Shown here piece by piece: positions 6,183 to 35,207 of a stretch of 64,000 nt of DNA. The notes beneath the pieces were generated by a model that was not told the origin of the DNA, searched no databases, and saw nothing but the letters and a program-made list of their open reading frames with translations. Each line of letters starts with the position of its first letter. The stretch's first letter is position 1. This DNA is from Candidatus Woesebacteria bacterium. GTDB lineage: Bacteria; Patescibacteriota; Microgenomatia; UBA8517. The DNA lies in assembly GCA_016432365.1 (NCBI GenBank), contig CP066686.1, positions 554,319 through 618,318 of the forward strand, read 5' to 3'. A program made the position numbers and the translations under genes.

Positions 6183-7307
6183 ATGAAAATAATTATTGAC
6201 GGTAGACTTTACGGTTTGGAAAACGCCGGTTTAGGTAGGTATTTAATCAATCTTGTTGAGGAACTGGGTAAGCTGGATAAAAAAAATGAATACACAATTC
6301 TTCTCAGAAAGAAATATTTTGATAGCTTGAAACTTTCCGCTAATTGGAAAAAGGTGCTTGTTGATTTGCGCCACTATAGTTTTGCAGAGCAAATATTCCT
6401 TCCGGGGATAATCACGAAAGAAAAACCGGATATTGTTCATTTCCCACATTTTAACGTACCCATTTTATATAAAGGAATGTTTGTGGTTACGATTCACGAT
6501 ATGCTTATGCACGATTTTGCAGGTCTTTCTGCTTCCACCTTACCCGGGCCGTTATATTTTTTAAAGCAATCTGTTTATAAATTTGTATTTAGGAGAGCAG
6601 TCCTTGCATCTTCCCGGATAATTGTGCCTTCATATGCTGTTGGAGCGGGGTTAAAGAAATATTACAACCTGCCGGATTCTAAAATAGAAACTATATACGA
6701 AGGTTTTGATAACAAGATAACCCTAAATCGGACAAAAAATAATGACCCCTACTTTATTTATACCGGAAACGCTTATCCTCACAAAAATCTCAACCGTCTT
6801 ATTGAAGCAATGGTGCTGCTTAATGAAAAAGTCGATAGAAAAGTCTTACTTATGATTGCTTCTGCGAGAAATGTTTTTACAAAAAGACTCGAAAAAGTGA
6901 TTACCGGATTAAAAGCCGATGAATATGTAAAACTTAAAGGCTTTGTGCCGGACTCTGAATTGGGTTCGTTGTATAAGAATTCTTTGGGATTTGTTTCCCC
7001 TGCGCTTTCCGAAGGCTTCGGTCTTCCCGGCCTTGAGGCAATGAGTTGTGGAACGCTTCTACTTGCATCCGATATTCCGGTATTTAAAGAAATTTATGAA
7101 AAACACGCCACATATTTTGATCCTTTTGATCCCTCTTCGATTGAAAATGCTATGAGAAGCGTGATAGAGACAGACGCGGTTACGCGCCGGAAGAAAATTT
7201 TGGAAGGCCAAAAGTTTTCAAAAGGCTATTCATGGGTTAAAATGGCCACTCAAACCCTGAAAATATATGAAAGCTTATTCAAAAAAGAAAGTGGCGATAG
7301 TTTATGA
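6183..7307 (+). CDS. Glycosyltransferase family 4
   Basis: C-terminal EGFGLPGLEAMSCGTLLLASDIPVFKEI matches the GT4 E-x7-E region. Confidence 0.8.
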   Translation: MKIIIDGRLYGLENAGLGRYLINLVEELGKLDKKNEYTILLRKKYFDSLKLSANWKKVLVDLRHYSFAEQIFLPGIITKEKPDIVHFPHFNVPILYKGMFVVTIHDMLMHDFAGLSASTLPGPLYFLKQSVYKFVFRRAVLASSRIIVPSYAVGAGLKKYYNLPDSKIETIYEGFDNKITLNRTKNNDPYFIYTGNAYPHKNLNRLIEAMVLLNEKVDRKVLLMIASARNVFTKRLEKVITGLKADEYVKLKGFVPDSELGSLYKNSLGFVSPALSEGFGLPGLEAMSCGTLLLASDIPVFKEIYEKHATYFDPFDPSSIENAMRSVIETDAVTRRKKILEGQKFSKGYSWVKMATQTLKIYESLFKKESGDSL

Positions 7308-8385
7308 CAGAGTAAATAAGTGGGGGGGCGCTGAGCGCGTTCTCCTCGCTCTCCACGAAATTTTTCCCAATGCACCTCTTTATACTTCGGTTTATGATAA
7401 AAAAAATGCCAAGTGGGCAAAAGTTTTTCCAAAGGTAGTAGCTTCGTTTTTACAGACATTTCCGTTTGCAAAATCCAACCACGAATTTTTTGCTTCGTTA
7501 ATGCCTCTGGCTTTTGAGTCCTTTGATTTTTCTGGTTTTGATATAGTTATTTCGGTGACCAGCGAAGCGGCAAAGGGAATTAAAACAAAGCATAATCAAT
7601 TACACATTTGTTATTGTTTAACACCAACACGCTATCTTTGGAGTTCTCATGACAGTTATTTCAAAAATCCGCCACCTATTTTTAAATTTTTCCCTTTCTT
7701 TGGAGTAATTTCAAGACCATTTGTCTTTTTTCTTAGAAGGTGGGACCTAGGAGCCTCAAAGCAACCTGACGTTATGATTGCCATTTCCGGTGAAGTCCAA
7801 AAAAGAATTAAAAAATATTACAAAAGAAACTCGGTGATAGTTTATCCTCCGGTAGAACTCAAGAGTCTAAATTCGAAATTCGGGAATACTATCCAAAAGT
7901 CAAAAAAAGAATTTTACTTGATAGTTAGTAGGCTGGTGGGATATAAGAGGGTTGATTTAGCGATTGCCGCTTTTAACAAATTAGAAATCCCTCTCGTTGT
8001 CGTAGGAACTGGCAGCGAAGAAAAGAGGTTGAAGAAAAAAGCAAAAAGAAATATTAAACTTGTAGGAGCAGTATCGGAAAAAGCATTGGTCCGTTACTAT
8101 TCAGGTGCAAAAGCGCTTATTATGCCGCAGGAGGAAGATTTTGGAATTGTGGCAGTTGAGGCACAGTCGATGGGTGTTCCGGTAATTGCTTACAAAAAGG
8201 GAGGGGCAATTGACACTGTCATTCCCGGTAAAACTGGTATATTCTTTGATGAACAAAAACCTGAGAGTCTGATAAAAGCAGTGAAGAGATTTGAAAAAAA
8301 TAAGTTTTTAGTTGATAATCTACGTACAAATGCAAAACGATTCAACAAACAAACCTTCCGGAAAAGATTCCTCAGACTCATATAA
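7267..8385 (+). CDS. Glycosyltransferase family 4
   Basis: EEDFGIVAVEAQSMGVPVIAYKKGGAIDTV matches the GT4 catalytic region. N-domain VYDRVNKWGGAERVLLAL. Confidence 0.75.
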   Translation: MKAYSKKKVAIVYDRVNKWGGAERVLLALHEIFPNAPLYTSVYDKKNAKWAKVFPKVVASFLQTFPFAKSNHEFFASLMPLAFESFDFSGFDIVISVTSEAAKGIKTKHNQLHICYCLTPTRYLWSSHDSYFKNPPPIFKFFPFFGVISRPFVFFLRRWDLGASKQPDVMIAISGEVQKRIKKYYKRNSVIVYPPVELKSLNSKFGNTIQKSKKEFYLIVSRLVGYKRVDLAIAAFNKLEIPLVVVGTGSEEKRLKKKAKRNIKLVGAVSEKALVRYYSGAKALIMPQEEDFGIVAVEAQSMGVPVIAYKKGGAIDTVIPGKTGIFFDEQKPESLIKAVKRFEKNKFLVDNLRTNAKRFNKQTFRKRFLRLI

Positions 8386-9466
8386 AGACCATTTGTATGC
8401 CCTGATTCTCGCAGGGGGGGGCGGAACTCGTCTTTGGCCAAGATCCAGGAATAAGACTCCAAAACAATTTCTCCCGTTATTTTTAGAGAACCAAACGCTA
8501 ACAGAGCTGACATTTCTTAGGTTTCAAAAATTGGTTCCGATCGACAGGATTTTTTGTGTTACTGTTTCCGAAGACTACAAAAAAGAGATCCTAAGAGAGA
8601 TTCCGGAATTTAAGAAAGAAAACATTGTTGTTGAGCCAGCCAGACGTGAAACCGGACCAGCCCATGCATTGGGGGCATATATTATCAGTAAATTAGATAA
8701 AGACGCAGTAATAATTACTGAGGCCGCAGATAGGTTGGTTAGTCCGGTTCATCGTTATCTTCAGGTATTAACAGCGTCGGCGAAAATAGCTTATGAAAAG
8801 CGAGTATTAGTTGCTTTAGGTGTACCCCCGCGATATCCCCATACTGGCTTGGGCCATATAAAGAGGGGGGAGAGGCTGGATGATGTTGGTGATGTTGCTT
8901 TTTTTAAACTGGAGAAGTTTGTGGAAAAGCCACCTCTAGAATTGGCTAAAGAGTACACCGAATCAAAAGAGTATTATTGGAATGCCGGTGAGTTTGTATG
9001 GAGGGCAGATGTTTTATTGGAGGAAATTGCAAATTACGCCCCGGAAATTACCAAGCATTTGGTTAGGATTGGAAAGGGAGAAAAAATTGAGGATGTTTAT
9101 AAAGATATGCCTGCAATAGCAATAGATTATGCGGTGGCAGAAAAATCAAAAAATTTTTACGTTGTTCATGGCGATTTTAACTGGACCGATATCGGTGATT
9201 GGAAAGAGGTTTGGGAAAATAGCAAGAAGGATGACTTTGGAAATGTAATTATTGATGGTAGCGCCAAGGGCGGCGAAATTATAAACATCGACACCTCGGA
9301 TGCGTTGGTCCACAAGGATGGGAGATTAATAGCGATTGTTGATGTAGATAATATTATAGTGGTTGATACTCCTGACGCGCTTTTGATTTGTTCAAAAAGT
9401 AAAGCCCAGAATGTAAAAAAGGTGGTTGAAAAATTGAAGGCGGAAAATAGAACGGAGCTGCTCTGA
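8312..9466 (+). CDS. manC: Mannose-1-phosphate guanylyltransferase (GDP-mannose pyrophosphorylase, no PMI domain)
   Basis: LYALILAGGGGTRLWPRSRNKTPKQF is the classic NDP-sugar pyrophosphorylase motif of ManC/CpsB. The real start is probably later: an in-frame TTG at 8393 would leave an 8-nt gap after the upstream stop. Confidence 0.8.
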   Translation: MIIYVQMQNDSTNKPSGKDSSDSYKDHLYALILAGGGGTRLWPRSRNKTPKQFLPLFLENQTLTELTFLRFQKLVPIDRIFCVTVSEDYKKEILREIPEFKKENIVVEPARRETGPAHALGAYIISKLDKDAVIITEAADRLVSPVHRYLQVLTASAKIAYEKRVLVALGVPPRYPHTGLGHIKRGERLDDVGDVAFFKLEKFVEKPPLELAKEYTESKEYYWNAGEFVWRADVLLEEIANYAPEITKHLVRIGKGEKIEDVYKDMPAIAIDYAVAEKSKNFYVVHGDFNWTDIGDWKEVWENSKKDDFGNVIIDGSAKGGEIINIDTSDALVHKDGRLIAIVDVDNIIVVDTPDALLICSKSKAQNVKKVVEKLKAENRTELL

Positions 9467-24920: not shown

Positions 24921-26171
24921 ATGTCAAAATTAATTGTTACTGGCGGCAGAAAACTTGAAGGTAATATTAGCCTTTCAGGTAATAAGAACTCGGTTTTGAA
25001 GCTAATCCCAGCAGTTCTTCTTGCAGATTCCCCCTCTACTCTAACAAATGTACCTGATATATTGGATGTTTCTGTTGTGCTTCAGCTTATTGAGACTTTG
25101 GGAGCAAAAGTTACAAGGGACGGCCATTCGGTTACGATAGACCCTTCGGGATTACACTCTTTCGACTTGGATCCGGATCTTTCTGCAAAATTTAGAGCTT
25201 CGGTTGTCCTTGCTGCACCTCTTTTAGTCAAATTCGGCAAAGCGATCGTTACACCTCCTGGGGGAGACCAAATAGGAGACAGATTCTTGGATACCCATTT
25301 TTCTATGATGCAAAAGATGGGGGTTGAAATGAGGCGTGAAGATGGAAGGTTTTTCCTCACCTGGAACAAGAAAAAAACTGGTACCCTCTTCTTAGAAGAA
25401 GCTTCTGTGACTGCCACCGAAATGGCTCTAATGATGGCCACTTCTTCTCCGGACATCACAGTAGTTGAAAACGCTGCCACAGAACCTCACGTTACAGACT
25501 TAGGTAAACTGTTAATTAAAATGGGGGCAAAAATAACAGGTTTGGGTCTTAGTACCCTATCTATTTCCGGTGGAAAATTAAAAGGCGTTGAATACAGAGT
25601 TATGCCCGATCATATTGAAGGCGGTACGTTTGTGATAGCCTCGGCAATTACCGGCGGGCATATAAAAATAGATGATTTCATCCCCGAAGATCACAGGATG
25701 GCTCTAATCAATCTTGCAAACATGGGTGTTAAATTTGAGCTGTCAAAAAACAGTATCGAGGTTTTTCCGTCAAAATTGGTTGCTACTAGAAAGAAATTTA
25801 AAGCCCAACCTTGGCCGGGTTTTCCGACGGATCTCATGAGTCCTTTTATCGTTCTTGCCACACAAACCCAGGGAACGGTTCTCTGCCACGATTGGATGTA
25901 TGAATGGAGAATGTTTTTTGTAGACGATCTAATTTCAATGGGAGCAAATATTTTCATTGCTGACCCCCATAGAGTCATTGTTAGCGGCCCTACGCCTTTG
26001 ATGAGCGACAGACTTTTTTGTAAAGATATTAGGGCGGGGATTTCGGTAATATTAGCAGCCCTTATTGCGGACGGTAGGAGTGAAATAGAAAATATTGAAG
26101 TAGTTCAAAGAGGGTATGAAAGAATAGATGAAAGGTTAAGAAGTTTGGGAGCAGAGATAGTTACGAAATAA
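24921..26171 (+). CDS. murA: UDP-N-acetylglucosamine 1-carboxyvinyltransferase
   Basis: LIVTGGRKLEGNISLSGNKNSVLKL..PAVLLAD is the MurA N-terminus. About 416 aa. Confidence 0.9.
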   Translation: MSKLIVTGGRKLEGNISLSGNKNSVLKLIPAVLLADSPSTLTNVPDILDVSVVLQLIETLGAKVTRDGHSVTIDPSGLHSFDLDPDLSAKFRASVVLAAPLLVKFGKAIVTPPGGDQIGDRFLDTHFSMMQKMGVEMRREDGRFFLTWNKKKTGTLFLEEASVTATEMALMMATSSPDITVVENAATEPHVTDLGKLLIKMGAKITGLGLSTLSISGGKLKGVEYRVMPDHIEGGTFVIASAITGGHIKIDDFIPEDHRMALINLANMGVKFELSKNSIEVFPSKLVATRKKFKAQPWPGFPTDLMSPFIVLATQTQGTVLCHDWMYEWRMFFVDDLISMGANIFIADPHRVIVSGPTPLMSDRLFCKDIRAGISVILAALIADGRSEIENIEVVQRGYERIDERLRSLGAEIVTK

Positions 26172-27188
26172 ATGTCAGGTAAAACTCTCAAATTCCGTCA
26201 AAAAATTGTCACCTTCGGCGGAAAGACCGGACACTTCCAGCTACTGAATGGTTTAAAAAAATTCAACGATACCGAGTTTATTACTGCAGTTGTTGGGACA
26301 TGGGACAGCGGAGGAAGTAGCGGAGTCTTAAGAAGCGAACTTGGGGTTCTTCCCCCAGGGGACATCAGAGCCTGCCTTTTGGCTCTAATGGAAGATGATG
26401 AACAACAAAGAGTCGCTCAAAGATTGTTTGACGATAGGTTAAAGGAGGTGGTAGGCCCCTTAAAAGGACATTCCCTAGGAAACCTGATAGGAGTTAGGCT
26501 TGATCACATTTTTCATGGGCAGGATAGAGGAACGGATGCCGAGCGCTCGCTTTTTAGAATTCGTGGACATGTGCTTCCGGCGACATTAACAGATTTAAAC
26601 TTGGTTGCGGTTACAAAAAAAGGGAAAGAGATAGATGGCGAAACAAATATTGATACCCGCCGTGAACAAGATGGATTTGATCCAAAAGATAGGATTATGC
26701 GCATATATTTTGGTACACACGCAGACAGTAATCCCAGAGTCCTCGAGGCGATTAAAAAGGCAGACAAAATAGTTTTTGCTCCGGGTGACCTGTACACAAG
26801 TGTTTTACCCCATTTGCTTATAGCAGGAGTTCCGGAGGCAATTCAGAAAAGTCATGCAAAAGTTTACTTTGTTCTGAATTTAATTGAAAAAGAGGGAGAG
26901 ACAGATTATTTTAAAGCGTCAGATTTTGTAAAAGCGTTTATTTTTTACCTTGGTAATCCAAAACGATTGGATTACTTAGTTGCCAATGGTGGTAGTTTCG
27001 GCAGAGAAATTGTAAAGGTCTATGAAGGTGAAAAGAAAAAGGCTGTCAAACTTGATGAACCGACATGTAGAAAGATTGCTCCAAATGTAAACATAATTAA
27101 AACTAAATTGTGGGAATATCTTAAAACAGCACACCTACTTCGTCACGATTCGGAAAAACTTGCGCTTAGTATTTTACAAGAACGCTGA
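26172..27188 (+). CDS. yvcK: YvcK/GlmR-like gluconeogenesis factor (UPF0052/CofD-like)
   Basis: IVTFGGKTGHFQLLNGL...ITAVVGTWDSGGSSGVLRSELGVLPPGDIRACLLAL matches the YvcK signature. Confidence 0.8.
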   Translation: MSGKTLKFRQKIVTFGGKTGHFQLLNGLKKFNDTEFITAVVGTWDSGGSSGVLRSELGVLPPGDIRACLLALMEDDEQQRVAQRLFDDRLKEVVGPLKGHSLGNLIGVRLDHIFHGQDRGTDAERSLFRIRGHVLPATLTDLNLVAVTKKGKEIDGETNIDTRREQDGFDPKDRIMRIYFGTHADSNPRVLEAIKKADKIVFAPGDLYTSVLPHLLIAGVPEAIQKSHAKVYFVLNLIEKEGETDYFKASDFVKAFIFYLGNPKRLDYLVANGGSFGREIVKVYEGEKKKAVKLDEPTCRKIAPNVNIIKTKLWEYLKTAHLLRHDSEKLALSILQER

Positions 27189-27233
27189 ATGATATATAAT
27201 TTGCTGAGAGGAAATAGGTAGTTCTTTTATTAC

Positions 27234-27546
27234 AGAGCGTGTGGCCCCGCGAAGCCTTGGCGGAGTGGGGATACGAGGAAGAAGGTCCAAGGTATAAAAT
27301 TGATCGTTAGTCTTGGAAATCGTACCCGCATCATTTTGAATGATACGGAGTATCTGCGGAAACCTTCCGGCATGTTGAATGCCGAAATGATTTTTTTAAA
27401 ATTCCGGAGTAATCCGGAAAGTGAAGCCCCCCAACCTAACGGTCGGGGTATCTTCTCCCAAGCTTTGTCGGGAGCGAAATCCCCCAGAAGCGAAACATCT
27501 TCGCTTACCAGCGGGCTGACGCCCTAGGTATTTGCGAAGGGGGATA
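27234..27546 (+). ncRNA. glmS ribozyme: Candidate glmS ribozyme (GlcN6P-responsive self-cleaving leader) in glmS 5'UTR
   Basis: About 310-nt GC-enriched structured leader immediately 5' of glmS. It contains an AGCG...GGCGG hairpin followed by a GAUACGAGGAAGAAGGU...UAUAAAAUUGAUCG segment resembling the conserved glmS-ribozyme core (GACGAGGAUGGAGGUUAUCGAAUUUUCGG in Bacillus, recalled from memory). A TATATAAT-type -10 lies at about 27191-27200. The ORF-track 75-aa ORF here is non-coding-like. Confidence 0.5.
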
Positions 27547-27595
27547 AAGAAAAATCTGGTCAACAACTACTTCAGACCTTTCTATTAAAGTTTTT

Positions 27596-29368
27596 ATGTG
27601 TGGAATTTTTGGTTATATTGGAAAACGTACCGATTCTGCAAAAATAGTTTTTGACGGATTAAAAAGTCTTGAATACCGTGGCTATGATTCATGGGGTGTT
27701 GCCGTACTGTCTAAGTCCAGTTTAAAAATTTTTACTAAAAAGGCTGCAGGAAAAATAGGAAATAATAATGTAAATGCGTTGCCCGACGGAAATATCGCAA
27801 TCGGACACACAAGATGGGCTACACATGGCGGCGTCACAGATACAAATTCACATCCACATTCTGACTGCTCGGGAAATATTTCAATAATTCATAATGGAAT
27901 TTTCGAAAATTACGAAGATTATAAAAAGAAACTAGTCCAAAAAGGTCACAAATTTATATCAGAAACCGACACGGAAGTTATCTCACATTTGGTAGAAGAC
28001 TTCAGCAAAAAGTTGACCTTCTCTGATTCAGTTAAAAAAACCTTCAATTTGATGACCGGGCTTAACGCAATAATTGCAGTAAAGCTGATTGAAGACCGTA
28101 TTGTCGCGATAAGAAACGGCTCTCCTCTTGTTGTGGGTTTTGGACAGGATGAGAATTTTTTGGCAAGCGACGCTTCAGCATTACTCCCGTTTACAAAAGA
28201 TGTTTATTTCTTGGAGGACGATGAAATGGTAATTTTGGAAAGGGGTAAAGTAAGAGTTTCAAATGTAAAAACCGGTAAAATTGTGAGATTCAAAAAACAA
28301 AAGCTTAATTGGAATGTCGATCAGGGAGAAATGGGTAAATACTCAAGTTTTATGTTAAAGGAGATTAATGAACAGCCTAAAATTTTGAGAGAAATTGCAA
28401 TGAGTGCCGGCAAAAATGTCGAAAAGATTTCAAAGATAATAAAAAAATCCCGCGGGTCGTATTTGGTGGGGTGTGGTTCGGCTTCCTATGCTGCGATGGC
28501 CGGGACATATTTATTTTCTAAGATTGCTGGACGCCATATAAATTTTGCTATTGGAAGTGAGTTCGGATACCACCTGGATTTTCTAAACAAAGACAGTTTG
28601 GTTATACCCATCTCCCAGTCCGGAGAGACAATAGATATTCTTGAATCAATGAAAAAGGCCAAGGAACGTGGAGCCGGGATTGTTTCGCTTGTTAATGTTC
28701 TGGGATCTTCTCTATACAGGATGTCTGATGAAAAAATTTTAATAGGGGCGGGGCCAGAAAAATCGGTTGCTTCGACAAAAGCACTTACGGGAATGATTGC
28801 CCATTTGGTTTTGCTTTCATTTTCGTTAGACGGCGGAGTCAAAAAAGGTAAAAAAGCTTTATTGGAGGCGGCTAATTCTATTAAAAAAATTCTTTCAGGT
28901 AAAGACTCCAAAAACATTAAAAAGTTAGCAGACATTATATGTGATAGTAAAAACATCTATGTGATTGGACGTGGACTCTCTTACCCAACAGCTCTTGAAA
29001 CAGCAATGAAAATTAAGGAAATTTCATATATCCACGCGGAAGGGTTGGCTGCGGGGGAACTTAAACACGGACCGTTGGCATTGGTAACAAAAGGAACTCC
29101 TTGTATTGCCTTTTTACCAAACGATGAAACATATGGTGCTAATCTTGCTGGGGCAATGGAGATGAAAGCGAGGGGGGGATTTGTAATAGGTATTTCATTT
29201 AAATCTCACGAGGTTTTTGATTATTATATTCAGGTAAAAGATGTGGGCATAGCCACAATGATTCCGAATATTGTTGTGGGTCAACTTTTAGCCTATTTTT
29301 TGACGATAAAAAAAGGATTGGATGTAGATAAGCCCCGCAATTTGGCAAAAAGTGTAACTGTTAAATAG
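27596..29368 (+). CDS. glmS: Glutamine--fructose-6-phosphate aminotransferase (isomerizing)
   Basis: MCGIFGYIG N-terminal nucleophile Cys, glutaminase domain, two SIS domains. 590 aa. Confidence 0.9.
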   Translation: MCGIFGYIGKRTDSAKIVFDGLKSLEYRGYDSWGVAVLSKSSLKIFTKKAAGKIGNNNVNALPDGNIAIGHTRWATHGGVTDTNSHPHSDCSGNISIIHNGIFENYEDYKKKLVQKGHKFISETDTEVISHLVEDFSKKLTFSDSVKKTFNLMTGLNAIIAVKLIEDRIVAIRNGSPLVVGFGQDENFLASDASALLPFTKDVYFLEDDEMVILERGKVRVSNVKTGKIVRFKKQKLNWNVDQGEMGKYSSFMLKEINEQPKILREIAMSAGKNVEKISKIIKKSRGSYLVGCGSASYAAMAGTYLFSKIAGRHINFAIGSEFGYHLDFLNKDSLVIPISQSGETIDILESMKKAKERGAGIVSLVNVLGSSLYRMSDEKILIGAGPEKSVASTKALTGMIAHLVLLSFSLDGGVKKGKKALLEAANSIKKILSGKDSKNIKKLADIICDSKNIYVIGRGLSYPTALETAMKIKEISYIHAEGLAAGELKHGPLALVTKGTPCIAFLPNDETYGANLAGAMEMKARGGFVIGISFKSHEVFDYYIQVKDVGIATMIPNIVVGQLLAYFLTIKKGLDVDKPRNLAKSVTVK

Positions 29369-29381
29369 CTGAGTAACTTAG

Positions 29382-29441
29382 GGACTAAGGGTCATTAACG
29401 AGGACTAAAAGTCTTAAGAAGGACTAAAAGTCATAAGAAGG
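29382..29441. repeat. Three tandem about 19-20-nt direct repeats GGACTAAR(R)GTCWTWARGAA
   Basis: Units at 29382-29401, 29402-29420, 29421-29439, the last two differing by 1 nt. They span the convergent glmS/GNAT junction and encode the last about 8 aa of the GNAT ORF. Confidence 0.5.
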
Positions 29442-29971
29442 TGATTATCTTCAGTGGTTATTTTTGTAATGAACCCGAATTTTTCGTAAAGTTTTATTGC
29501 AAATTTGTTATCCCTTCTGGTGACAAGCCAAAATCCTTTTTGTTGAGACTCTAGATATTTATCGGATTTCATAAATTTTTCAAACGCGGCTCTCATAAGT
29601 TTTTCTGAATAACCCTGTCCCCTGGCTGGAGGATAAATTCTAATCGCAAACGTAAAAGGAAATTCTATTGCTTGTGGATTTGCTTTAAACGCAAACCAAG
29701 CTACGCCCAAAAGTTTTCCATTTTTATCACTTAATGTGTAAATATATTTACCCAACACCCATTTTTCAAAAGATTCCAGACTCTTAAATCTTTTGGCGTC
29801 ATGGGTGAATTTTCTGATCTGGGGATCGGACTTAGTGTAACTCAATAATTCCTGAACCTGATTTTTGGTTATTCCTAAAGAAACTATTTGGCCATGCATT
29901 TGGTATAATATACCACGAATGGGGAAAATTATTGGTATTACCGATGACTCCAGAAAGGTTAAACCAGGCAT
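29414..29971 (-). CDS. GNAT family N-acetyltransferase
   Basis: ARGQGYSEKLMRA...AIKLYEKFGF match GNAT motifs A/B. The true start may be the internal Met (MHGQIV), which would remove the overlap with murE. Confidence 0.7.
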   Translation of the reverse strand: MPGLTFLESSVIPIIFPIRGILYQMHGQIVSLGITKNQVQELLSYTKSDPQIRKFTHDAKRFKSLESFEKWVLGKYIYTLSDKNGKLLGVAWFAFKANPQAIEFPFTFAIRIYPPARGQGYSEKLMRAAFEKFMKSDKYLESQQKGFWLVTRRDNKFAIKLYEKFGFITKITTEDNHLLMTFSPS

Positions 29972-31952
29972 GGTTTTTGTCGCGGTTAAGGGTAAGACAA
30001 CTGACGGGCATAACTATATTGAAGAAGCTCTAAAAAATGGTGCGGAACATGTTTTTGGAGAAATGAATTTTAAAAATTCAAAATATACTAAGGTATCGGA
30101 CTCGAGGCAAAAACTAGGTGATTTAGCATCAGAATTTTACGAAAATCCCTCAAAAAAACTGAAGATTATTGGTGTAACCGGTACAAAAGGTAAGACTACC
30201 ACAACACATATTATTTACCATATTTTAACCGCTTTGAAAAAAAAGGCGGGAATGGTTTCCTCGAATATGGCAAGGATTGGAAACAAAGAAGTCGATACGG
30301 GGTTCCATGTAACAAGCCCTGATGTAATTTCACTTCATAAATTTTTAAAAGAAATGGTAGATGCCGGGTGTGAATATGCTGTAATTGAGGTCAGTTCACA
30401 CGGAATAGACCAGAAAAGAATTGCCGGGGTCGATTTTGAAGTCGGAGTTTTGACCAATATTGCTCCTGAACATCTGGATTATCACAAAACCTTCAGAGAA
30501 TATAGACGGGTCAAAATGTCATTTGTTAACTCGTGTAAATTTAAGGTTATTGCACCCAAAGAAACTACTACAAATATTCTTCCCGGAAAATTCAACAATT
30601 TGAATGTTGATGTGGCCGTTGAAACCGTAACAAAACTTGGCTTTGATAGAAAAAAAGCGTTGGGAACTTTGGAATCTTTCGAATTACCAAAAGGAAGATT
30701 GGACGAAATCAAAAACAATTTAGGTTTTAGAATAGTAATCGACTTCGCTCACACACCCGACTCGTTGGAAGCAGTACTCACATATTTGAGATCGGAACGT
30801 AAAGGCAAGGGGAAATTGATTTCTGTATTCGGATGCGCCGGGGAAAGAGATATCAAAAAAAGATTCAAAATGGGTAAAGTTTCAGTTAAACTGGCGGATT
30901 TTTCGGTATTTACCGCTGAGGATCCAAGGAGTGAGGATGTAAATGATATTTTGGCCAAAATGGTTGAAGGAGCAAAATCAGTTGGAGGGATCGATGGGAA
31001 AAACTTTGTCAGAATTCCGCTTCGAGGAGAAGCGGTTGCATTCGCACTTTCTATCGCAAAAAAGGGCGATATCGTAGGGTTTTTTGGAAAAGGGCACGAA
31101 ACCAGTATGGCATATAGCGCGTGTGACGCTTCAAGCAATGCTTGTAAAAGATTTGAACATCCTTGGAGTGATAGAACCGAAATTGAAAATTATTTACATG
31201 GAACGCCTGATGTCTCGGCGGTAATTTTGGCGGCAGGAAAAGGAACAAGAATGAGATCTCAATATCCGAAAGTCATTCATGAAATTTGTGGACGTCCGAT
31301 GGTTTCGTACACACTTGAGAACTTAAGAAAGGCCGGAATAATAGATATCACCGCGGTTGTTTCGTTTAGAAAAAACCTTGTAATTAATAGAATTAAAGGT
31401 GCTGTAAAAATTGCGTACCAGAAAAATCCAAAAGGAGGAACCGCTGATGCCGCTAAAGCAGGTTTCAAGCTGATTTCTCCAAACACTAAAACCCTCTTAA
31501 TCATAAACGGAGACGACAGCGCGTTTTACACCCCGGAAACGATTAAAAAAATTTTAGAAATCCACACAGATAGAGAGCGGAAACTTACATTTGTATCTTT
31601 GATGAAAGAAAATCCAACAGGATTGGGCCGTGTTATACGTAGACCCGACGGTCTTATTGCAAAAATTGTTGAGGAGAAAGACGCAACTGATGCAGAAAGA
31701 AAAATTAACGAAGTCAATGACGGCCTTTATGTTTTTGATAAAAAATGGTTCTCTCGTAATATAGAAAAAGTTAAGAAAAGTGCTCAGGGGGAATATTACC
31801 TGGTAGATTTGATTAAGCTTGCGATAGACCAGGGAGATAGAATGGCTACTTATACTTTACCGAATGATGACGAATGGCAGGGGATTAATACTCCGGAACA
31901 ACTTGCGGAAGCAAATAGGAAGATGGACAAGAAACTAAAAGGACATAATTAA
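29865..31952 (+). CDS. murE: Bifunctional fusion: MurE (UDP-MurNAc-L-Ala-D-Glu:diamino-acid ligase) + GlmU-type GlcNAc-1-P uridyltransferase domain (no acetyltransferase LbH domain)
   Basis: Residues about 19-440 are Mur ligase (GKIIGITDDSRK, GVTGTKGKTTTTHI, DFAHTPDSLEAVL, GKGHE). Residues about 445-695 are a nucleotidyltransferase domain AVILAAGKGTRMRSQYPKVIHEICGRPMV, close to the GlmU N-domain consensus (LAAGKGTRM...PKVLH). The ORF-track start is a TTG; the probable true start is the Met at about 29919. Confidence 0.8.
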   Translation: MVIPKETIWPCIWYNIPRMGKIIGITDDSRKVKPGMVFVAVKGKTTDGHNYIEEALKNGAEHVFGEMNFKNSKYTKVSDSRQKLGDLASEFYENPSKKLKIIGVTGTKGKTTTTHIIYHILTALKKKAGMVSSNMARIGNKEVDTGFHVTSPDVISLHKFLKEMVDAGCEYAVIEVSSHGIDQKRIAGVDFEVGVLTNIAPEHLDYHKTFREYRRVKMSFVNSCKFKVIAPKETTTNILPGKFNNLNVDVAVETVTKLGFDRKKALGTLESFELPKGRLDEIKNNLGFRIVIDFAHTPDSLEAVLTYLRSERKGKGKLISVFGCAGERDIKKRFKMGKVSVKLADFSVFTAEDPRSEDVNDILAKMVEGAKSVGGIDGKNFVRIPLRGEAVAFALSIAKKGDIVGFFGKGHETSMAYSACDASSNACKRFEHPWSDRTEIENYLHGTPDVSAVILAAGKGTRMRSQYPKVIHEICGRPMVSYTLENLRKAGIIDITAVVSFRKNLVINRIKGAVKIAYQKNPKGGTADAAKAGFKLISPNTKTLLIINGDDSAFYTPETIKKILEIHTDRERKLTFVSLMKENPTGLGRVIRRPDGLIAKIVEEKDATDAERKINEVNDGLYVFDKKWFSRNIEKVKKSAQGEYYLVDLIKLAIDQGDRMATYTLPNDDEWQGINTPEQLAEANRKMDKKLKGHN

Positions 31953-31953
31953 A

Positions 31954-33018
31954 ATGGAATCAACAGATGACATGGTTGAAGAGTACTTAAATCAGCCTCC
32001 CGTCGATCGAGAACTATCGATAAGATCTATCCGTTTAAACGAGTCGACCGTTGATAGTGGTTTTGTTGAGATTCCCGTTTTACCTCAAAGACCGGCGGTA
32101 AAGCCAGGTGAAGAAGATGCGTTTTTACTAAATACAAAGAAAACATTAAGAGATTTGAATATTTCGGAAACCGAGACTGTTTCTACAGAAGTCATAACAA
32201 TCGGTTTCCAGGAAAATATACCCGACGAGGTACGGGGTCCAGACCGGAGTGGAGAACAGTCTCTGAAAATATATAGTTTTCTGTCTCCAGAAAAAGTTAG
32301 CAAGGAAGGTTTAAAGGATGGGGTTCCTTTAGTAATTTTTAGTCATGGCGGAAAGATACATTCAGAAGTGATTGCGTCGAGTGGATACCTTCCAATGCTT
32401 TATGAAGATAATCCAGATATGATTTTAATTGCTATGGATCACAGAGGATCCCAGTCTCACAAAGCAAAAGAGGATTACGGTTTGGATGACCGTGTGGCTG
32501 ATATCCTCATTGCTCTCAAGTACACCCAAGATAATTTGGTTAAAGAATATGCAGATAAAGGCATTAAGTGGAATGGTAACATTATAATAATTGGAGACAG
32601 TATGGGGGGTGAAGTAGCTACAGTGGTAGCTGAAAAAGTCGGCGCCGACGGCCTGGTTTTAACTGAGCCGGCAGCTTATTCGGTATTTGCACATCATGTA
32701 AAATTCGGTCAAAAAAGTGAACAGGAACCAGTGTTTGGTGGAGAAAAAGGGGTTATTAAAACTAAATCTCCGGAAGACTCTTACGCCTTTGATTCAATCA
32801 AAAAATATGCCAATGAGCCAAACTCAAAAATTTTGATGATAAAAATGAAAAATGACAAAATTGTGGGTAGCGTCCCTGATAAATATATCGAAAGTATAAA
32901 CGAGACAGATCCACAAAAAATCGAAGTCTTAGAAGTTGAGGGGGGTCACGGGTCTACAACACCTGAGGAGGTTAGGAAGATATCAGGTTTTGTAAAGAGT
33001 CTGAAAGGTAAAAAATGA
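31954..33018 (+). CDS. Alpha/beta-hydrolase fold protein (serine hydrolase, GDSMGG nucleophile elbow) with an acidic about 110-aa N-terminal extension
   Basis: GxSxG motif IIIIGDSMGGEVA with HGG oxyanion-type motif upstream (VIFSHGG). No signal peptide. Translationally coupled to both neighbours: 1-nt gap upstream, ATGA overlap downstream. Confidence 0.65.
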   Translation: MESTDDMVEEYLNQPPVDRELSIRSIRLNESTVDSGFVEIPVLPQRPAVKPGEEDAFLLNTKKTLRDLNISETETVSTEVITIGFQENIPDEVRGPDRSGEQSLKIYSFLSPEKVSKEGLKDGVPLVIFSHGGKIHSEVIASSGYLPMLYEDNPDMILIAMDHRGSQSHKAKEDYGLDDRVADILIALKYTQDNLVKEYADKGIKWNGNIIIIGDSMGGEVATVVAEKVGADGLVLTEPAAYSVFAHHVKFGQKSEQEPVFGGEKGVIKTKSPEDSYAFDSIKKYANEPNSKILMIKMKNDKIVGSVPDKYIESINETDPQKIEVLEVEGGHGSTTPEEVRKISGFVKSLKGKK

Positions 33019-35207
33019 CAAAAAAAATTCATTTCGTTGGAATTGGGGGGAGCGGGATTTCGGGTGTGGGCAAATTGGCCGAAAAAATGGGTTACGAAGT
33101 CACGGGATGTGATGTGGAATCTTCCACGGCATATGCAAAAAATATATTTCAAGGACACAGCCCTCAACATTTAGAAGATACTGATTTGGTCGTCGCTTCT
33201 CCAGCTTTATATTTCAACAAAGAAACAATAGATGAGATTGAGGCGGCCCGAAAAGATAGTAAATTAATGACATGGCAGGAGTTTTTAGGCAGAATTCTTT
33301 TAAAAGACAAAAAAATAATTTGTATTGCTGGAACTCATGGTAAGTCTACTACCACAGCAATGGTCGGAAAACTTCTTATTGATAATGGCCTCGATCCGAT
33401 TGTGATGGTCGGTGCGTTTGTCCCAGAGTGGGAAGGGAACTCAAGATTTGGGGAAGGTGAATATGCAGTGATTGAAGCAGACGAATTTAATAATAACTTT
33501 CTTAATTACTATCCGGATATTGCAATCGTAAATAACATAGAATTTGATCATCCCGATTTTTTTAAAAATGAAGGGGAAGTTAGAGAAAGTTTTAAAAAAT
33601 TTGTTGGTAATCTAAAGGGTGAAAAGTTGTTAATTACAGAGGGTGATAGTTTAGGAAAGAAATTCAATTTAAAAATTTTAGGCGAACACAACCAAAAAAA
33701 CGCTAATATGGTTTTTTTGTTAGGTAAGGCATTGGGAATAGATGAAGACAAGATTGTTACTTCGATCGAAAATTTTAAAGGGATTGGTAGGCGACTCGAA
33801 CTAATTGCGGATCGAGACGGGGTTAAGGTTTTTGATGATTATGCTCATCATCCGACAGCGATTAAGACAACGGTTGATGGGTTAAGGGAGGAATATCCCA
33901 AGGCAAAAATTTTAGCAATTGACGAGCCACACGGTTATAAAAGAACGAAAGCGCTTCTTGAAAATTATAAAGGTGTTTTTGATAGTGCAGACAAGGTCAT
34001 TATTGGCCCAATTTTTAAAGCAAGAGATGAAGTTGATCTATCCATTTCGCCGGAATCTGTTGCAAAAGCATCAGCTCATCGAGATATACAAACAGTCGGT
34101 AGTTTGGAAGAATTAATTAATAATTTAAAATTAATAATTAAAAATTTCGATATAGTTGTAGTTATGGGCGCAGGTAAAAGTTATTTGTGGGCCAGAGAAA
34201 TCGCCAGAATTTTACCAGTTAAATTTTCAGATATTACATCCTTTAAAATAGGTGGCAAGATAAAAAAATATTTTGAAGTAAGGACTAAGAACGAGATCGA
34301 TGAAGCTGTTAAATTTGCGAGTAATAACAATTTACCCATTTTTATTATCGGGGACGGAACAGATATTTTAGCATCAGATAAGGACTTTAATGGCATTGTT
34401 GTTAAATATGTAGGTAATAACATTGTTATCGATGATGATGGGAGTGCAACTGCCGAGGCTGGTGCGAATTGGGATAAATTTGTCGAGGAAGCTGTTACCC
34501 AGGGCTTTCAAGGTATTGAAAATTTATCCGGGATTCCCGGAACAGTCGGGGCAGCTCCGATTCAAAATATTGGGGCTTACGGATCGGAGTTAGATGATAG
34601 GTTCATAAGCCTTGAGGCATACGATTTAGAAAAAAGCAAGATAATTACTTTTTCTAAAAGCGATTGTAAATTTGGATACCGCGAAAGCATTTTCAAAAAA
34701 AGCAGCTATTGGCAGAAATTTGTGATTTTAAAAATAAAACTAAAGCTTATTAAAAATCAATTCGGAACGGCAAATTACGAATCATTAAAGAGATATATAA
34801 ATTCAAAAAAACCCACAATTCAAGAAATCCGTGATGCTGTATTAAAAGTGAGGTCCGAAAAATTAGAAAACCCAAAAGTAGTCGGAAATGCAGGTTCGTT
34901 TTTTAAGAACCCGATAGTTACTGCACAAGATAAAGAGAAGCTGGAAATAAAGTTACCCGGCATTAAAATTTTTCCATTTGGAGATAAATTTAAAATATCT
35001 GCTGGATGGTTGATTGAGTCGACAGGGTGGAAAGGTAAAGAATATAAAAACGCGGCGGTTTCTTCTAAACACGCGCTAATATTAATTAACAAAACTGGTA
35101 CAGCTACGGCAAAAGAGATCTACGATTTATCTGAGGAAATAATCAACGATGTCTCTAAAAAATTTGGGATTAAGCTAGAAAGAGAAGTTCAATTAATTAA
35201 TTTTTAA
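33015..35207 (+). CDS. murC: Bifunctional fusion: MurC (UDP-MurNAc:L-Ala ligase) + MurB (UDP-GlcNAc-enolpyruvate reductase)
   Basis: N-terminus KIHFVGIGGSGISGVGKLAEKMGYEVTGCD and IAGTHGKSTTTAM are MurC. C-terminal about 300 aa (KIGGKIKKYFEV...NLSGIPGTVGAAPIQNIGAYG...) is the MurB FAD-binding and substrate domain. Confidence 0.85.
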   Translation: MTKKIHFVGIGGSGISGVGKLAEKMGYEVTGCDVESSTAYAKNIFQGHSPQHLEDTDLVVASPALYFNKETIDEIEAARKDSKLMTWQEFLGRILLKDKKIICIAGTHGKSTTTAMVGKLLIDNGLDPIVMVGAFVPEWEGNSRFGEGEYAVIEADEFNNNFLNYYPDIAIVNNIEFDHPDFFKNEGEVRESFKKFVGNLKGEKLLITEGDSLGKKFNLKILGEHNQKNANMVFLLGKALGIDEDKIVTSIENFKGIGRRLELIADRDGVKVFDDYAHHPTAIKTTVDGLREEYPKAKILAIDEPHGYKRTKALLENYKGVFDSADKVIIGPIFKARDEVDLSISPESVAKASAHRDIQTVGSLEELINNLKLIIKNFDIVVVMGAGKSYLWAREIARILPVKFSDITSFKIGGKIKKYFEVRTKNEIDEAVKFASNNNLPIFIIGDGTDILASDKDFNGIVVKYVGNNIVIDDDGSATAEAGANWDKFVEEAVTQGFQGIENLSGIPGTVGAAPIQNIGAYGSELDDRFISLEAYDLEKSKIITFSKSDCKFGYRESIFKKSSYWQKFVILKIKLKLIKNQFGTANYESLKRYINSKKPTIQEIRDAVLKVRSEKLENPKVVGNAGSFFKNPIVTAQDKEKLEIKLPGIKIFPFGDKFKISAGWLIESTGWKGKEYKNAAVSSKHALILINKTGTATAKEIYDLSEEIINDVSKKFGIKLEREVQLINF

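What the first reader, a model, noticed from the sequence alone, without database searches (positions are those of the whole stretch)
29865..31952. MurE fused to a GlmU-type uridyltransferase domain
A single ORF carries a complete Mur ligase (MurE) followed by about 250 aa matching the GlcNAc-1-P uridyltransferase half of GlmU, with no left-handed beta-helix acetyltransferase half. UDP-GlcNAc formation would be physically coupled to stem-peptide synthesis, and GlcN-1-P acetylation must be done elsewhere or differently.
Basis: seen in the sequence. Interest (0 to 1): 0.6.

Follow-up and report, generated by a model that had tools for sequence, protein, structure and literature searches.

The report
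MurE fused to half of GlmU
A cell-wall gene in an uncultured Woesebacteria genome encodes one protein that joins the peptide-adding enzyme MurE to the UDP-GlcNAc-making half of GlmU; the fusion is real, shared by dozens of related species and apparently undescribed, but it most likely arose by read-through between neighbouring genes rather than as a new mechanism.

Summary
A continuous ORF (likely start ATG 29919, stop 31952, 677 aa) encodes a complete MurE followed, after a linker of about 4 residues, by the N-terminal pyrophosphorylase half of bacterial GlmU. There is no left-handed beta-helix.

It is not an assembly error. The identical protein lies on independent assemblies, more than 120 protein clusters share the architecture, and 39 GTDB species representatives (Woesebacteria/Microgenomates) carry it at the same place in the dcw cluster. 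Catalytic motifs of both halves are invariant.

Relatives explain the origin. Woykebacteria and Daviesbacteria have murE and a stand-alone 250-aa glmU-N as adjacent, overlapping genes. Other lineages fuse glmU-N to murC instead, and one contig fuses MurE-GlmU_N-MurC-MurB. This points to neighbour-gene fusion, not coupling of consecutive reactions, since MurA-D act in between.

The acetyltransferase is unresolved. None lies within the window ±10 kb. Relatives use a split GlmU C-half or an archaeal-type GlmU. The adjacent GNAT has no specific support.

Uridyltransferase-only GlmU is already published for Bacteroidetes and others. The MurE chimera itself was not found in the literature searched. 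Interest is moderate.

The parts
29919..31952 (+). murE::glmU-N fusion gene (677 aa plus stop).
   Evidence: ORF. Called as 677 aa on independent contigs. Homologues start at the same Met.
29919..31199 (+). MurE module (aa 1-427): three Mur-ligase domains, P-loop GTKGKTTT, DFAHTP, EDPR (a variant of DNPR), GKGHE, and the terminal helix.
   Evidence: The best solved relative is T. maritima MurE 4BUB, E 1e-68. The AlphaFold model places the last MurE helix at aa 418-426.
31200..31211 (+). Linker of four residues (G-T-P-D) between the last MurE helix and the first strand of the nucleotidyltransferase fold.
   Evidence: pLDDT is about 89 across the junction.
31212..31949 (+). GlmU N-terminal pyrophosphorylase (GlcNAc-1-P uridylyltransferase) module, aa 432-677. 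It ends in the long helix that in GlmU leads into the LbH domain.
   Evidence: Motifs LAAGKGTRM..PK, Q..GGT, GDD, GLGR, EEKD, NDG, GEYY and GIN are conserved.
29414..29899 (-). GNAT acetyltransferase (161 aa), transcribed divergently, 19 bp from the murE start. A candidate for the missing acetyltransferase, but unsupported.
27596..29368 (+). glmS (glutamine-fructose-6-P amidotransferase): the first step of UDP-GlcNAc synthesis, placed inside the dcw cluster.
   Evidence: GATase_6/7 + SIS.
26172..27188 (+). yvcK/glmR-type CofD-related protein (family of UDP-GlcNAc-binding proteins).
   Evidence: TIGR01826, 231 bits, above the cut-off of 196.
24921..26171 (+). murA, the consumer of UDP-GlcNAc.
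   Evidence: EPSP_synthase.
31954..33018 (+). Alpha/beta-hydrolase-like protein (354 aa, GDSMGG), inserted between the fusion gene and murC::murB. It is tightly packed: a 1-nt spacer upstream and an ATGA overlap downstream.
   Evidence: Found only in L005 and L066 among 80 related loci.
33015..35207 (+). murC::murB fusion (730 aa), a second chimera in the same operon.

Best explanation

The N-terminal 427 residues are the organism's MurE. MurE adds the third, diamino-acid residue to UDP-MurNAc-L-Ala-D-Glu in an ATP-dependent reaction. The C-terminal 246 residues are the pyrophosphorylase half of bacterial GlmU, which converts GlcNAc-1-P + UTP to UDP-GlcNAc + PPi. The two modules act independently on non-consecutive steps of the same pathway.

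The chimera arose in a Woesebacteria subclade. In Microgenomates-type Patescibacteria GlmU is already split, and the uridyltransferase gene lies immediately downstream of murE with overlapping stop and start codons. Loss of that boundary fused the two genes.

The likely benefit is equimolar co-expression and co-localisation. The fusion may also stabilise a GlmU half that has lost its trimerising beta-helix. Substrate channelling is not the likely benefit.

The acetylation step must be supplied in trans. By analogy with relatives the most likely source is an LbH enzyme encoded elsewhere in the genome (about 0.45). Salvage of GlcNAc (about 0.25) and the neighbouring GNAT (about 0.12) are alternatives.

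Shown here: the architecture, its recurrence, the conservation of catalytic residues, the synteny, and the unfused and alternatively fused states. Inferred: the enzymatic activities, the reason for retention, and the source of GlcNAc-1-P.
For: Architecture and family scores.

Not an artefact: identical protein on independent assemblies; at least 120 clusters at 61-78% identity share the architecture; 39 of 80 GTDB species loci carry it between murA/yvcK/glmS and murC.

Both halves are under purifying selection: all catalytic motifs are invariant in 16 diverse fusions and the junction is gap-free. It is the only MurE in the cluster.

The AlphaFold model is confident (pLDDT 85, pTM 0.81) and the linker is ordered.

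Ancestral unfused adjacency: L085 (Woykebacteria) has murE 6689-8011 and glmU-N 8001-8768. L086 (Daviesbacteria) has murE 6784-8004 and glmU-N 8001-8747. L045 has the two as separate adjacent ORFs.

Alternative fusions of the same domain: GlmU_N::MurC (P0128, P0140, P0252) and MurE::GlmU_N::MurC::MurB (L022). MurC::MurB is also fused in this window.

The closest relatives of the domain are mostly stand-alone proteins of about 250 aa from Patescibacteria.

Split GlmU demonstrated: the L086 223-aa LbH matches glmU profile positions 238-441.
Against: No enzyme activity has been measured for any member. Substrate specificity (GlcNAc-1-P against GlcN-1-P, GalNAc-1-P or MurNAc-1-P; mDAP against Lys) is inferred from family scores and motifs only. 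The MurE selectivity motif is EDPR rather than DNPR, and the best solved relative is the Lys-adding T. maritima enzyme.

No glmM and no GlcN-1-P acetyltransferase were found in 84 kb around the gene, so the pathway feeding the domain is unknown in this genome.

Long conservation of the fusion, down to 41% MurE identity, could reflect a selected functional interaction that sequence analysis cannot see.
Confidence: 0.8

Rival explanations
1. Assembly or annotation artefact: a lost stop codon or a frameshift joined two separate genes.
For: Close relatives do have two separate, overlapping genes, so a single error could mimic a fusion.
Against: The identical 677-aa product lies on two independent Logan assemblies and on an NCBI MAG. 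More than 120 clusters and 39 species representatives have the same continuous ORF with a conserved, gap-free junction.
Confidence: 0.01
2. The organism cannot acetylate glucosamine phosphate at all. Like Capnocytophaga canimorsus, it would keep only the uridyltransferase and build UDP-GlcNAc from GlcNAc scavenged from its host or environment.
For: C. canimorsus and 30 of 45 Bacteroidetes genera have a monofunctional uridyltransferase-only GlmU, and C. canimorsus is a GlcNAc auxotroph (PMC4358021). Patescibacteria are reduced episymbionts, and TM7x is reported not to encode UDP-GlcNAc synthesis (bioRxiv 10.1101/2022.03.25.485537). No acetyltransferase of GlmU type and no glmM lie within 84 kb. 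One relative of the domain is fused to an APH-type kinase (P0162).
Against: glmS and a yvcK/glmR homologue sit next to the fusion inside the dcw operon, which implies de novo GlcN-6-P that would be useless for wall synthesis without acetylation. No GlcNAc kinase or NagA is seen in the window. Relatives carry LbH acetyltransferases.
Confidence: 0.25
3. The divergently transcribed GNAT (29414-29899) replaces the lost LbH domain and acetylates GlcN-6-P or GlcN-1-P. This would be a non-orthologous displacement resembling the eukaryotic GNA1 route.
For: The GNAT has an intact acetyl-CoA motif. It sits 19 bp from the murE start, between glmS and the fusion. The same family is found directly upstream of murE in 10 of 39 fused loci and in L042, and in none of 38 loci without glmU-N. 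In four loci it is fused to a HAD domain, and glmU-N is itself fused to a HAD domain in another clade.
Against: There is no sequence or fold similarity to GNA1. The best matches are SpeG, phosphinothricin and RimI/J-type GNATs. It is absent next to the fusion in 29 of 39 species, including an 85%-identical relative. An unbiased metagenome search found 22 of 24 homologues in unrelated contexts (queA, tspO, HD-domain genes). L042 has both this GNAT and an LbH enzyme. The HAD domains cannot be classified.
Confidence: 0.12
4. The C-terminal domain is not a GlcNAc-1-P uridylyltransferase. It would activate another sugar phosphate (MurNAc-1-P as MurU does, GlcN-1-P, Glc-1-P) or act as a UDP-sugar-sensing regulatory domain of MurE.
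For: Loss of the LbH partner could have released the constraint on specificity. The nucleotidyltransferase fold is promiscuous. The residue equivalent to E. coli Tyr103 varies (N in this protein, Y in many fusions).
Against: GlmU models score 218 bits against 48 for MurU and 67 for RmlA. All residues I know to bind UTP, Mg2+ and GlcNAc in GlmU are invariant. No other UDP-GlcNAc pyrophosphorylase is seen in the cluster, although murA needs its product.
Confidence: 0.1
5. The fusion is selected because it builds a multi-enzyme peptidoglycan-precursor complex. The GlmU half would be docked on MurE so that UDP-GlcNAc supply is coupled to the Mur ligase assembly.
For: The chimera is conserved down to about 41% MurE identity. 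The linker is short and confidently modelled and pTM is 0.81. Mur chimeras of non-consecutive enzymes are known and have been interpreted in this way (PMC10214165).
Against: The same domain is found free, fused to MurC, or fused to HAD, kinase or SDR domains. The partner therefore follows gene neighbourhood, not a specific interaction. Four enzymatic steps separate the two reactions.
Confidence: 0.15

Closest known systems
Bacterial bifunctional GlmU (E. coli 1HV9/2OI5, S. pneumoniae 1HM0/1G95; truncated GlmU-Tr331 1FWY)
   Same: The C-terminal 246 aa align over the whole pyrophosphorylase domain, at 35-45% identity to solved GlmUs, with all signature motifs. The module ends in the helix that precedes the LbH. 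Engineered N-terminal fragments such as Tr331 retain uridyltransferase activity (cited in PMC4358021).
   Different: There is no LbH acetyltransferase or trimerisation domain. The module is attached to the C-terminus of MurE. It scores below the full-length equivalog cut-offs (218 against 367-450 bits).
Monofunctional or split GlmU variants: GlmU_Cc of Capnocytophaga canimorsus and other Bacteroidetes (PMC4358021), and truncated N-only, C-only or separately encoded halves noted in bioRxiv 10.64898/2026.06.23.733835
   Same: These are naturally occurring uridyltransferase-only GlmU homologues. The acetyltransferase is supplied in trans, is unknown, or is absent.
   Different: Those are free-standing proteins. 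None is reported fused to a Mur ligase, and none is from Patescibacteria. Here glmS is adjacent.
Natural Mur chimeras (MurE-MurF of Bordetella pertussis 8F5D, MurC-Ddl, MurC-MurB / MurB/C of Verrucomicrobium, MurG-MurC, MurD-FtsW, MraY-MurG)
   Same: Fusion of neighbouring dcw-cluster genes into one polypeptide, often joining enzymes of non-consecutive steps (PMC10214165; PMC4803751).
   Different: The partner is a pre-MurA enzyme of UDP-GlcNAc synthesis, not a Mur, Ddl, FtsW or MraY protein. The published census does not list it, and it excluded unidentified species.
MurE (T. maritima 4BUB, M. tuberculosis 2WTZ, E. coli 1E8C)
   Same: Three-domain Mur ligase with all ATP-binding and substrate-binding motifs, scoring above the NCBIfam murE cut-offs.
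   Different: It carries a C-terminal nucleotidyltransferase, has the selectivity motif EDPR, and has a Cys/Ser-rich insertion of about 10 residues at aa 394-411.
Archaeal-type bifunctional sugar-1-P nucleotidylyltransferase/acetyltransferase (TIGR03992; ST0452, 2GGO/5Z09)
   Same: It occupies the same position after murE in other Woesebacteria and presumably serves the same pathway.
   Different: It is a different subfamily (112 bits to the window domain, against 218 for bacterial GlmU) and it retains the LbH domain.

Membership tests
MurE (UDP-MurNAc-tripeptide synthetase, TIGR01085 / NF001126) | Three Mur-ligase domains (PF01225, PF08245, PF02875) and a whole-protein score above the curated cut-off | tested here: met
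   412 bits (cut-off 257.3) and 402 bits (cut-off 373).
MurE (UDP-MurNAc-tripeptide synthetase, TIGR01085 / NF001126) | ATP-binding P-loop and conserved catalytic and substrate motifs | tested here: met
   GTKGKTTT, EVSSH, DFAHTP, GCAGERD and GKGHE are invariant in 16 fusions. The roles of these motifs are from my knowledge of Mur ligases.
MurE (UDP-MurNAc-tripeptide synthetase, TIGR01085 / NF001126) | DNPR motif that selects meso-diaminopimelate | tested here: inconclusive
   The motif is EDPR (Arg kept, Asn replaced by Asp). The T. maritima Lys-adding enzyme, which has DDPR, is the best solved match.
MurE (UDP-MurNAc-tripeptide synthetase, TIGR01085 / NF001126) | Position in the dcw cluster as the only MurE-type ligase | tested here: met
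   the cluster runs ftsI-murA-...-murE::glmU_N-...-murC::murB-murD-murI-ddl-murF-mraY-ftsW-murG.
Bifunctional GlmU (TIGR01173 equivalog) | N-terminal pyrophosphorylase domain with the L-x2-G-x-G-T-x-M-x4-P-K signature | tested here: met
   LAAGKGTRMRSQYPK is present. The match covers profile positions 2-241.
Bifunctional GlmU (TIGR01173 equivalog) | C-terminal left-handed beta-helix GlcN-1-P acetyltransferase domain | tested here: not met
   There is no Hexapep hit. The protein ends about 20 residues into the linker helix.
Bifunctional GlmU (TIGR01173 equivalog) | Whole-protein score above the curated cut-off | tested here: not met
   208-218 bits against cut-offs of 366.85 and 450.
Bifunctional GlmU (TIGR01173 equivalog) | GlcNAc-1-P uridylyltransferase activity | not testable with these tools
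   Inferred only from family ranking and conserved residues.
Natural Mur chimeras of the dcw cluster | A single ORF that joins a Mur ligase to another peptidoglycan-pathway enzyme and recurs across genomes | tested here: met
Natural Mur chimeras of the dcw cluster | The partners are neighbouring genes in unfused relatives | tested here: met
   L045, L085 and L086.
GNA1-type GlcN-6-P N-acetyltransferase (considered for the neighbouring GNAT) | Specific sequence or fold similarity to GNA1 | tested here: not met
   the best matches are SpeG, PAT and RimI/J-like. No GNA1 appears in the top 50.
GNA1-type GlcN-6-P N-acetyltransferase (considered for the neighbouring GNAT) | Consistent association with amino-sugar genes | tested here: not met
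   22 of 24 metagenomic homologues lie in unrelated contexts.

The most novel reading that the evidence does not exclude
In the fusion-bearing Woesebacteria the beta-helix acetyltransferase is truly gone. Glucosamine phosphate would then be acetylated by an unrelated enzyme: the divergently transcribed GNAT (in some species fused to a HAD domain that could act as a phosphomutase or phosphatase), or another unrecognised protein. The result would be a bacterial UDP-GlcNAc pathway rebuilt on the eukaryotic plan and wired into the dcw operon, with its last enzyme tethered to MurE.
Probability: 0.12. Interest if true: 0.65.

Novelty: new variant of a known kind. Interest (0 to 1): 0.4.

Why it matters
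GlmU and the Mur ligases are antibiotic targets, and GlmU is usually presented as a universally bifunctional bacterial enzyme.

This locus and its relatives show that a large uncultured lineage (Microgenomates-type Patescibacteria) has taken GlmU apart. These genomes place the uridyltransferase half inside the dcw operon and repeatedly weld it to whichever Mur gene lies next to it. That adds a chimera type missing from the published census of Mur fusions. It extends the set of enzymes physically linked to Mur ligases back to UDP-GlcNAc synthesis.

It also makes one gap in CPR metabolism concrete: where GlcNAc-1-P comes from in these genomes.

The fused protein could be a convenient, naturally monomeric GlmU-N construct. 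It could also serve as a test case for the proposed cytoplasmic Mur complex. It does not reveal a new catalytic principle.

Tried and rejected
1. Assembly error: rejected.

2. MobA-, IspD-, MurU- or RmlA-type identity of the C-terminal domain: rejected on score ranking.

3. Search for the missing acetyltransferase in the window.
- Pfam annotation of all genes found only a ManC-type beta-helix (8312-9466; a GDP-mannose pyrophosphorylase, TIGR01479).
- A hexapeptide regular expression found nothing.
- tblastn with a GlmU C-half and an Arch_glmU C-half found nothing.
- Extending 10 kb on either side found one 198-aa LbH protein about 1 kb upstream of the window. It is a WcaF/maltose-type polysaccharide O-acetyltransferase, not GlmU-like.

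4. glmM: the phosphohexomutase signature is absent from the window and from all 80 related loci.

5. GNAT as a GNA1-like enzyme: no support from NCBIfam, PDB sequence search, Foldseek of a model with pLDDT 91.5, or unbiased genomic context.

6. HAD domains fused to the GNAT or to GlmU_N: only weak generic HAD hits, so a role as mutase, phosphatase or pyrophosphatase cannot be decided.

7. Technical dead ends.
- The diverse GNAT alignment A3 was too variable for a metagenome scan, so A2 was used instead.
- The AFDB fold library was not available.
- The rest of the 1.08-Mb genome could not be read with the tools. Whether an LbH enzyme, glmM or GlcNAc-salvage genes lie elsewhere is therefore untested.

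8. The NJ tree of GlmU_N domains is rough. It shows one main clade of MurE fusions, with one outlier (P0179) and scattered MurC fusions. I do not rely on it for the number of fusion events.
Full report
**What is there.** The window is part of a Candidatus Woesebacteria (Patescibacteria/CPR) genome. The exact protein is in NCBI under that organism, on a 1.08-Mb contig. [quoted passage not shown] The gene order is mraZ, rsmH, a small gene, ftsI (23203), murA (24921), a yvcK/glmR-type gene (26172), glmS (27596), a GNAT on the opposite strand (29414-29899), the fusion gene (29919-31952), an alpha/beta-hydrolase-like gene (31954), murC::murB (33015), murD, murI, ddl, murF, mraY, ftsW, murG, ftsA, ftsZ. 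Glycosyltransferase and polysaccharide genes flank the operon on both sides.

**Check of the observation.** The ORF is continuous from 29865 to 31952. Gene callers on independent contigs start it at ATG 29919, as do 15 aligned homologues, which gives 677 aa. Pfam finds the three Mur-ligase domains followed by NTP_transferase. NCBIfam puts the N-terminal part above the curated murE cut-offs: TIGR01085 at 412 against 257, and NF001126 at 402 against 373. The C-terminal part matches every GlmU model over profile positions about 2-241 only, at 218 bits. The next nucleotidyltransferase families are far behind: archaeal GlmU 112, AglF 80, long RmlA 67, MurU 48, MocA 44, IspD 40. There is no hexapeptide-repeat domain. 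Against solved structures the domain aligns end to end with the pyrophosphorylase domain of GlmU (E 5e-43 to 1e-27). The MurE half aligns best with T. maritima MurE (4BUB, 1e-68). The DNA at the junction reads ...FEHPWSDRTEIENYLHGTPDVSAVILAAGKGTRM... with no stop and no frame change.

**Not an artefact, and not a one-off.** The identical protein is encoded on two separate Logan assemblies and on the NCBI MAG. The protein database holds at least 120 clusters (61-78% identical, 630-714 aa) with the same Pfam architecture, from NCBI, JGI, ENA and Logan. A scan of one genome per GTDB species returned 80 loci, and 39 of them carry MurE::GlmU_N as one ORF. MurE identity falls as low as about 41%. 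All 39 are Woesebacteria, Microgenomates or 'Patescibacteria group' records, or bins mislabelled 'uncultured Gammaproteobacteria' that carry the same Woesebacteria-type dcw cluster. All have the ORF at the same operon position.

In an alignment of 16 diverse fusions the junction has no gaps, and the motifs of both halves are invariant. For MurE these are GTKGKTTT, EVSSH, DFAHTP, GCAGERD, EDPR and GKGHE. For GlmU_N they are LAAGxGxRM..PK, Q..GGT, GDD, GLGR, EEK, NDG, E-Y and G-N. The roles of these residues (UTP, Mg2+ and GlcNAc binding in GlmU; ATP and substrate binding in Mur ligases) come from my knowledge of the solved enzymes. Their conservation is what the alignment shows.

An AlphaFold2 model is confident (pLDDT 85, pTM 0.81). 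The last MurE helix (aa 418-426) runs through a four-residue linker into the first strand of the nucleotidyltransferase fold (432-437). The protein ends in a long helix (659-676) that corresponds to the arm preceding the beta-helix in GlmU. Only a loop at 129-131 and an insertion at 394-411 have low confidence.

**How it arose.** The closest relatives of the C-terminal domain, among 1.8 billion cluster representatives, are mostly free-standing proteins of 245-260 aa. Where named, they come from Woykebacteria, Daviesbacteria, Levybacteria and other Patescibacteria. Their genes sit in the dcw cluster. In a Woykebacteria contig, murE (6689-8011) overlaps glmU-N (8001-8768). In a Daviesbacteria contig, murE (6784-8004) overlaps glmU-N (8001-8747) by four bases. 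In L045 the two are adjacent but separate. Removing one stop codon from such a gene pair would produce the window's gene.

The same domain is also found in other fusions:
- fused in front of MurC (P0128, P0140, P0252; murC TIGR01082 at 295-352 bits);
- fused to MurE, MurC and MurB together in one 1,523-aa ORF (L022);
- fused to HAD, APH-kinase and short-chain-dehydrogenase domains.

In the window itself murC and murB are fused, and neighbouring genes are separated by one base or overlap. The simplest reading is repeated fusion of neighbours in very compact operons. It is not a specific partnership between the MurE reaction and UDP-GlcNAc formation, since MurA, MurB, MurC and MurD act between the two. 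A rough NJ tree places nearly all MurE-fused domains in one clade and scatters the MurC fusions.

**Where the acetyltransferase is.**
- In Daviesbacteria the answer is explicit. The gene after glmU-N encodes a 223-aa beta-helix protein that matches glmU profile positions 238-441 (246 bits), so GlmU is split into two adjacent genes.
- In Woykebacteria a 214-aa beta-helix protein lies upstream of mraZ.
- In both, ATP-citrate-lyase-like genes, a plausible acetyl-CoA source, are adjacent.
- In Woesebacteria without glmU-N next to murE, that position holds an archaeal-type bifunctional nucleotidyltransferase/acetyltransferase (TIGR03992, 234-298 bits).
- Two loci have both types: L025 (a fused locus) and L042.

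In the window, and for 10 kb on either side, I found no such gene. The only beta-helix proteins are a ManC-type GDP-mannose pyrophosphorylase and, about 1 kb upstream of the window, a WcaF-type polysaccharide O-acetyltransferase. No phosphoglucosamine mutase signature occurs in the window or in any related locus. The rest of the genome could not be read.

**The neighbouring GNAT.** It was the obvious candidate for a replacement acetyltransferase. It lies between glmS and the fusion, 19 bp from the murE start, and it has an intact acetyl-CoA motif. The same family lies in the same position in 10 of 39 fused loci and in L042. In four loci it is fused to a HAD domain.

The case did not hold up:
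- It has no sequence or fold resemblance to GlcN-6-P acetyltransferase. The best matches are SpeG, phosphinothricin and RimI/J-type enzymes.
- It is missing next to the fusion in most species, including an 85%-identical one.
- A search started from the GNAT itself found 22 of 24 metagenomic homologues beside unrelated genes.

I keep it as a low-probability option.

**Comparison with what is known.**
- Uridyltransferase-only GlmU is not new. Capnocytophaga canimorsus and 30 of 45 Bacteroidetes genera have a monofunctional enzyme, and C. canimorsus is a GlcNAc auxotroph (PMC4358021).
- A 2026 preprint lists bacteria with only the N-half, only the C-half, or both halves encoded separately (10.64898/2026.06.23.733835).
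- Natural Mur chimeras are also known. They include MurE-MurF, MurC-Ddl, MurC-MurB, MurG-MurC, MurD-FtsW and MraY-MurG, and several join non-consecutive enzymes (PMC10214165; PMC4803751).
- That census excluded unidentified species and lists no GlmU partner.
- Further searches for GlmU, MurE, fusion, Patescibacteria or Woesebacteria found no description of this chimera.
- Public databases carry the proteins under generic names: 'NTP transferase domain-containing protein', 'Mur ligase family protein' or plain MurE.

**Verdict.** The fusion is a real, conserved, lineage-specific Mur chimera in which both halves look catalytically competent. The idea that it couples UDP-GlcNAc formation to stem-peptide synthesis is not supported beyond the physical link. 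The inference that acetylation happens elsewhere is sound and is illustrated by relatives, but for this genome the source of GlcNAc-1-P remains open. The options are an LbH enzyme elsewhere (most likely), GlcNAc salvage, or an unrelated acetyltransferase. It is a new variant of two known themes, split GlmU and Mur chimeras, and is of moderate interest.

Noticed in passing
window 33015-35207 (+): A second chimera in the same operon: MurC (aa 1-~400) fused to MurB (aa ~400-730). Both halves score strongly (murC 321 bits, murB 330 bits). Among relatives this pair is fused in some species and separate in others.
   Followed up: partly
L022 2280-6848 (+): One groundwater Woesebacteria contig has a single 1,523-aa ORF with MurE, GlmU_N, MurC and MurB domains in series: four enzymes in one reading frame. 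It was seen once, on a 7-kb contig, so an error is not excluded.
   Followed up: partly
L086 8751-12324; L085 1-2988; also L036 12937-15627 and L057 7161-9827: ATP-citrate-lyase-like genes (ATP-grasp_2/Citrate_bind, CoA-ligase, citrate-synthase-like) sit next to the stand-alone GlmU C-half inside or beside the dcw cluster in Daviesbacteria and Woykebacteria. They also occur in two Woesebacteria loci. They may supply acetyl-CoA locally for amino-sugar acetylation.
   Followed up: no
L040, L041, L044, L047, L048, L049, L051, L057, L060, L074 (just after murE); L025 8616-9929 (-); L042 11218-12492: Woesebacteria lacking glmU-N next to murE carry an archaeal-type bifunctional nucleotidyltransferase/acetyltransferase (TIGR03992) at that position. 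Its N-terminal motif is unusual: LAAGESSRF. The two gene types are largely complementary in distribution; L025 and L042 have both.
   Followed up: partly
L009 3458-4648, L010 8720-9910, L012 8720-9910, L018 2391-3524 (all minus strand); L042 12393-13904; P0137, P0174: An unclassifiable HAD-hydrolase domain is fused to the GNAT upstream of murE in four species. In another clade it is fused to the C-terminus of GlmU_N (proteins of about 470-500 aa). Its function is unknown: phosphatase, mutase or pyrophosphatase.
   Followed up: partly
P0162 (574 aa) and P0163 (382 aa), relatives: GlmU_N is also found fused to an APH-family kinase, reminiscent of anomeric GlcNAc/MurNAc kinase plus uridylyltransferase salvage. 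It is also found fused to a short-chain dehydrogenase.
   Followed up: no
window 31954-33018 (+): A 354-aa alpha/beta-hydrolase-like protein (nucleophile elbow GDSMGG) is wedged between murE::glmU-N and murC::murB and appears translationally coupled to them. Among 80 related loci it is present only in L005 and L066. Its function is unknown.
   Followed up: partly
window 26172-29368 (+): A yvcK/glmR-type gene (family of UDP-GlcNAc-binding proteins) and glmS lie inside the dcw operon between murA and murE. Together they form a UDP-GlcNAc supply module. Their presence and position vary among relatives.
   Followed up: partly
window 31098-31151 (aa 394-411 of the fusion): [quoted passage not shown] It is shared with P0042 and partly with P0012, and is absent from most fusions.
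   Followed up: no
L112 8178-8774 (about 0.9-1.5 kb upstream of window position 1): A 198-aa hexapeptide-repeat acetyltransferase of WcaF/maltose-O-acetyltransferase type lies in the flanking glycosyltransferase cluster. It is not GlmU-like.
   Followed up: yes
L005, L010, L011, L017, L019, L020 and other loci: Many GTDB representative records titled 'uncultured Gammaproteobacteria bacterium' (also 'Alphaproteobacteria' and 'Pseudomonadales') carry Woesebacteria-type dcw clusters up to 92% identical to this window. These record titles look like taxonomic mislabels.
   Followed up: no
L085 6689-8011, L086 6784-8004, L045 1605-2891, L080 11707-12942: The unfused MurE proteins of these relatives align to the window's MurE only from about residue 66-77 onward. 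They are about 400-440 aa long, so their N-terminal domain is much reduced or different.
   Followed up: no
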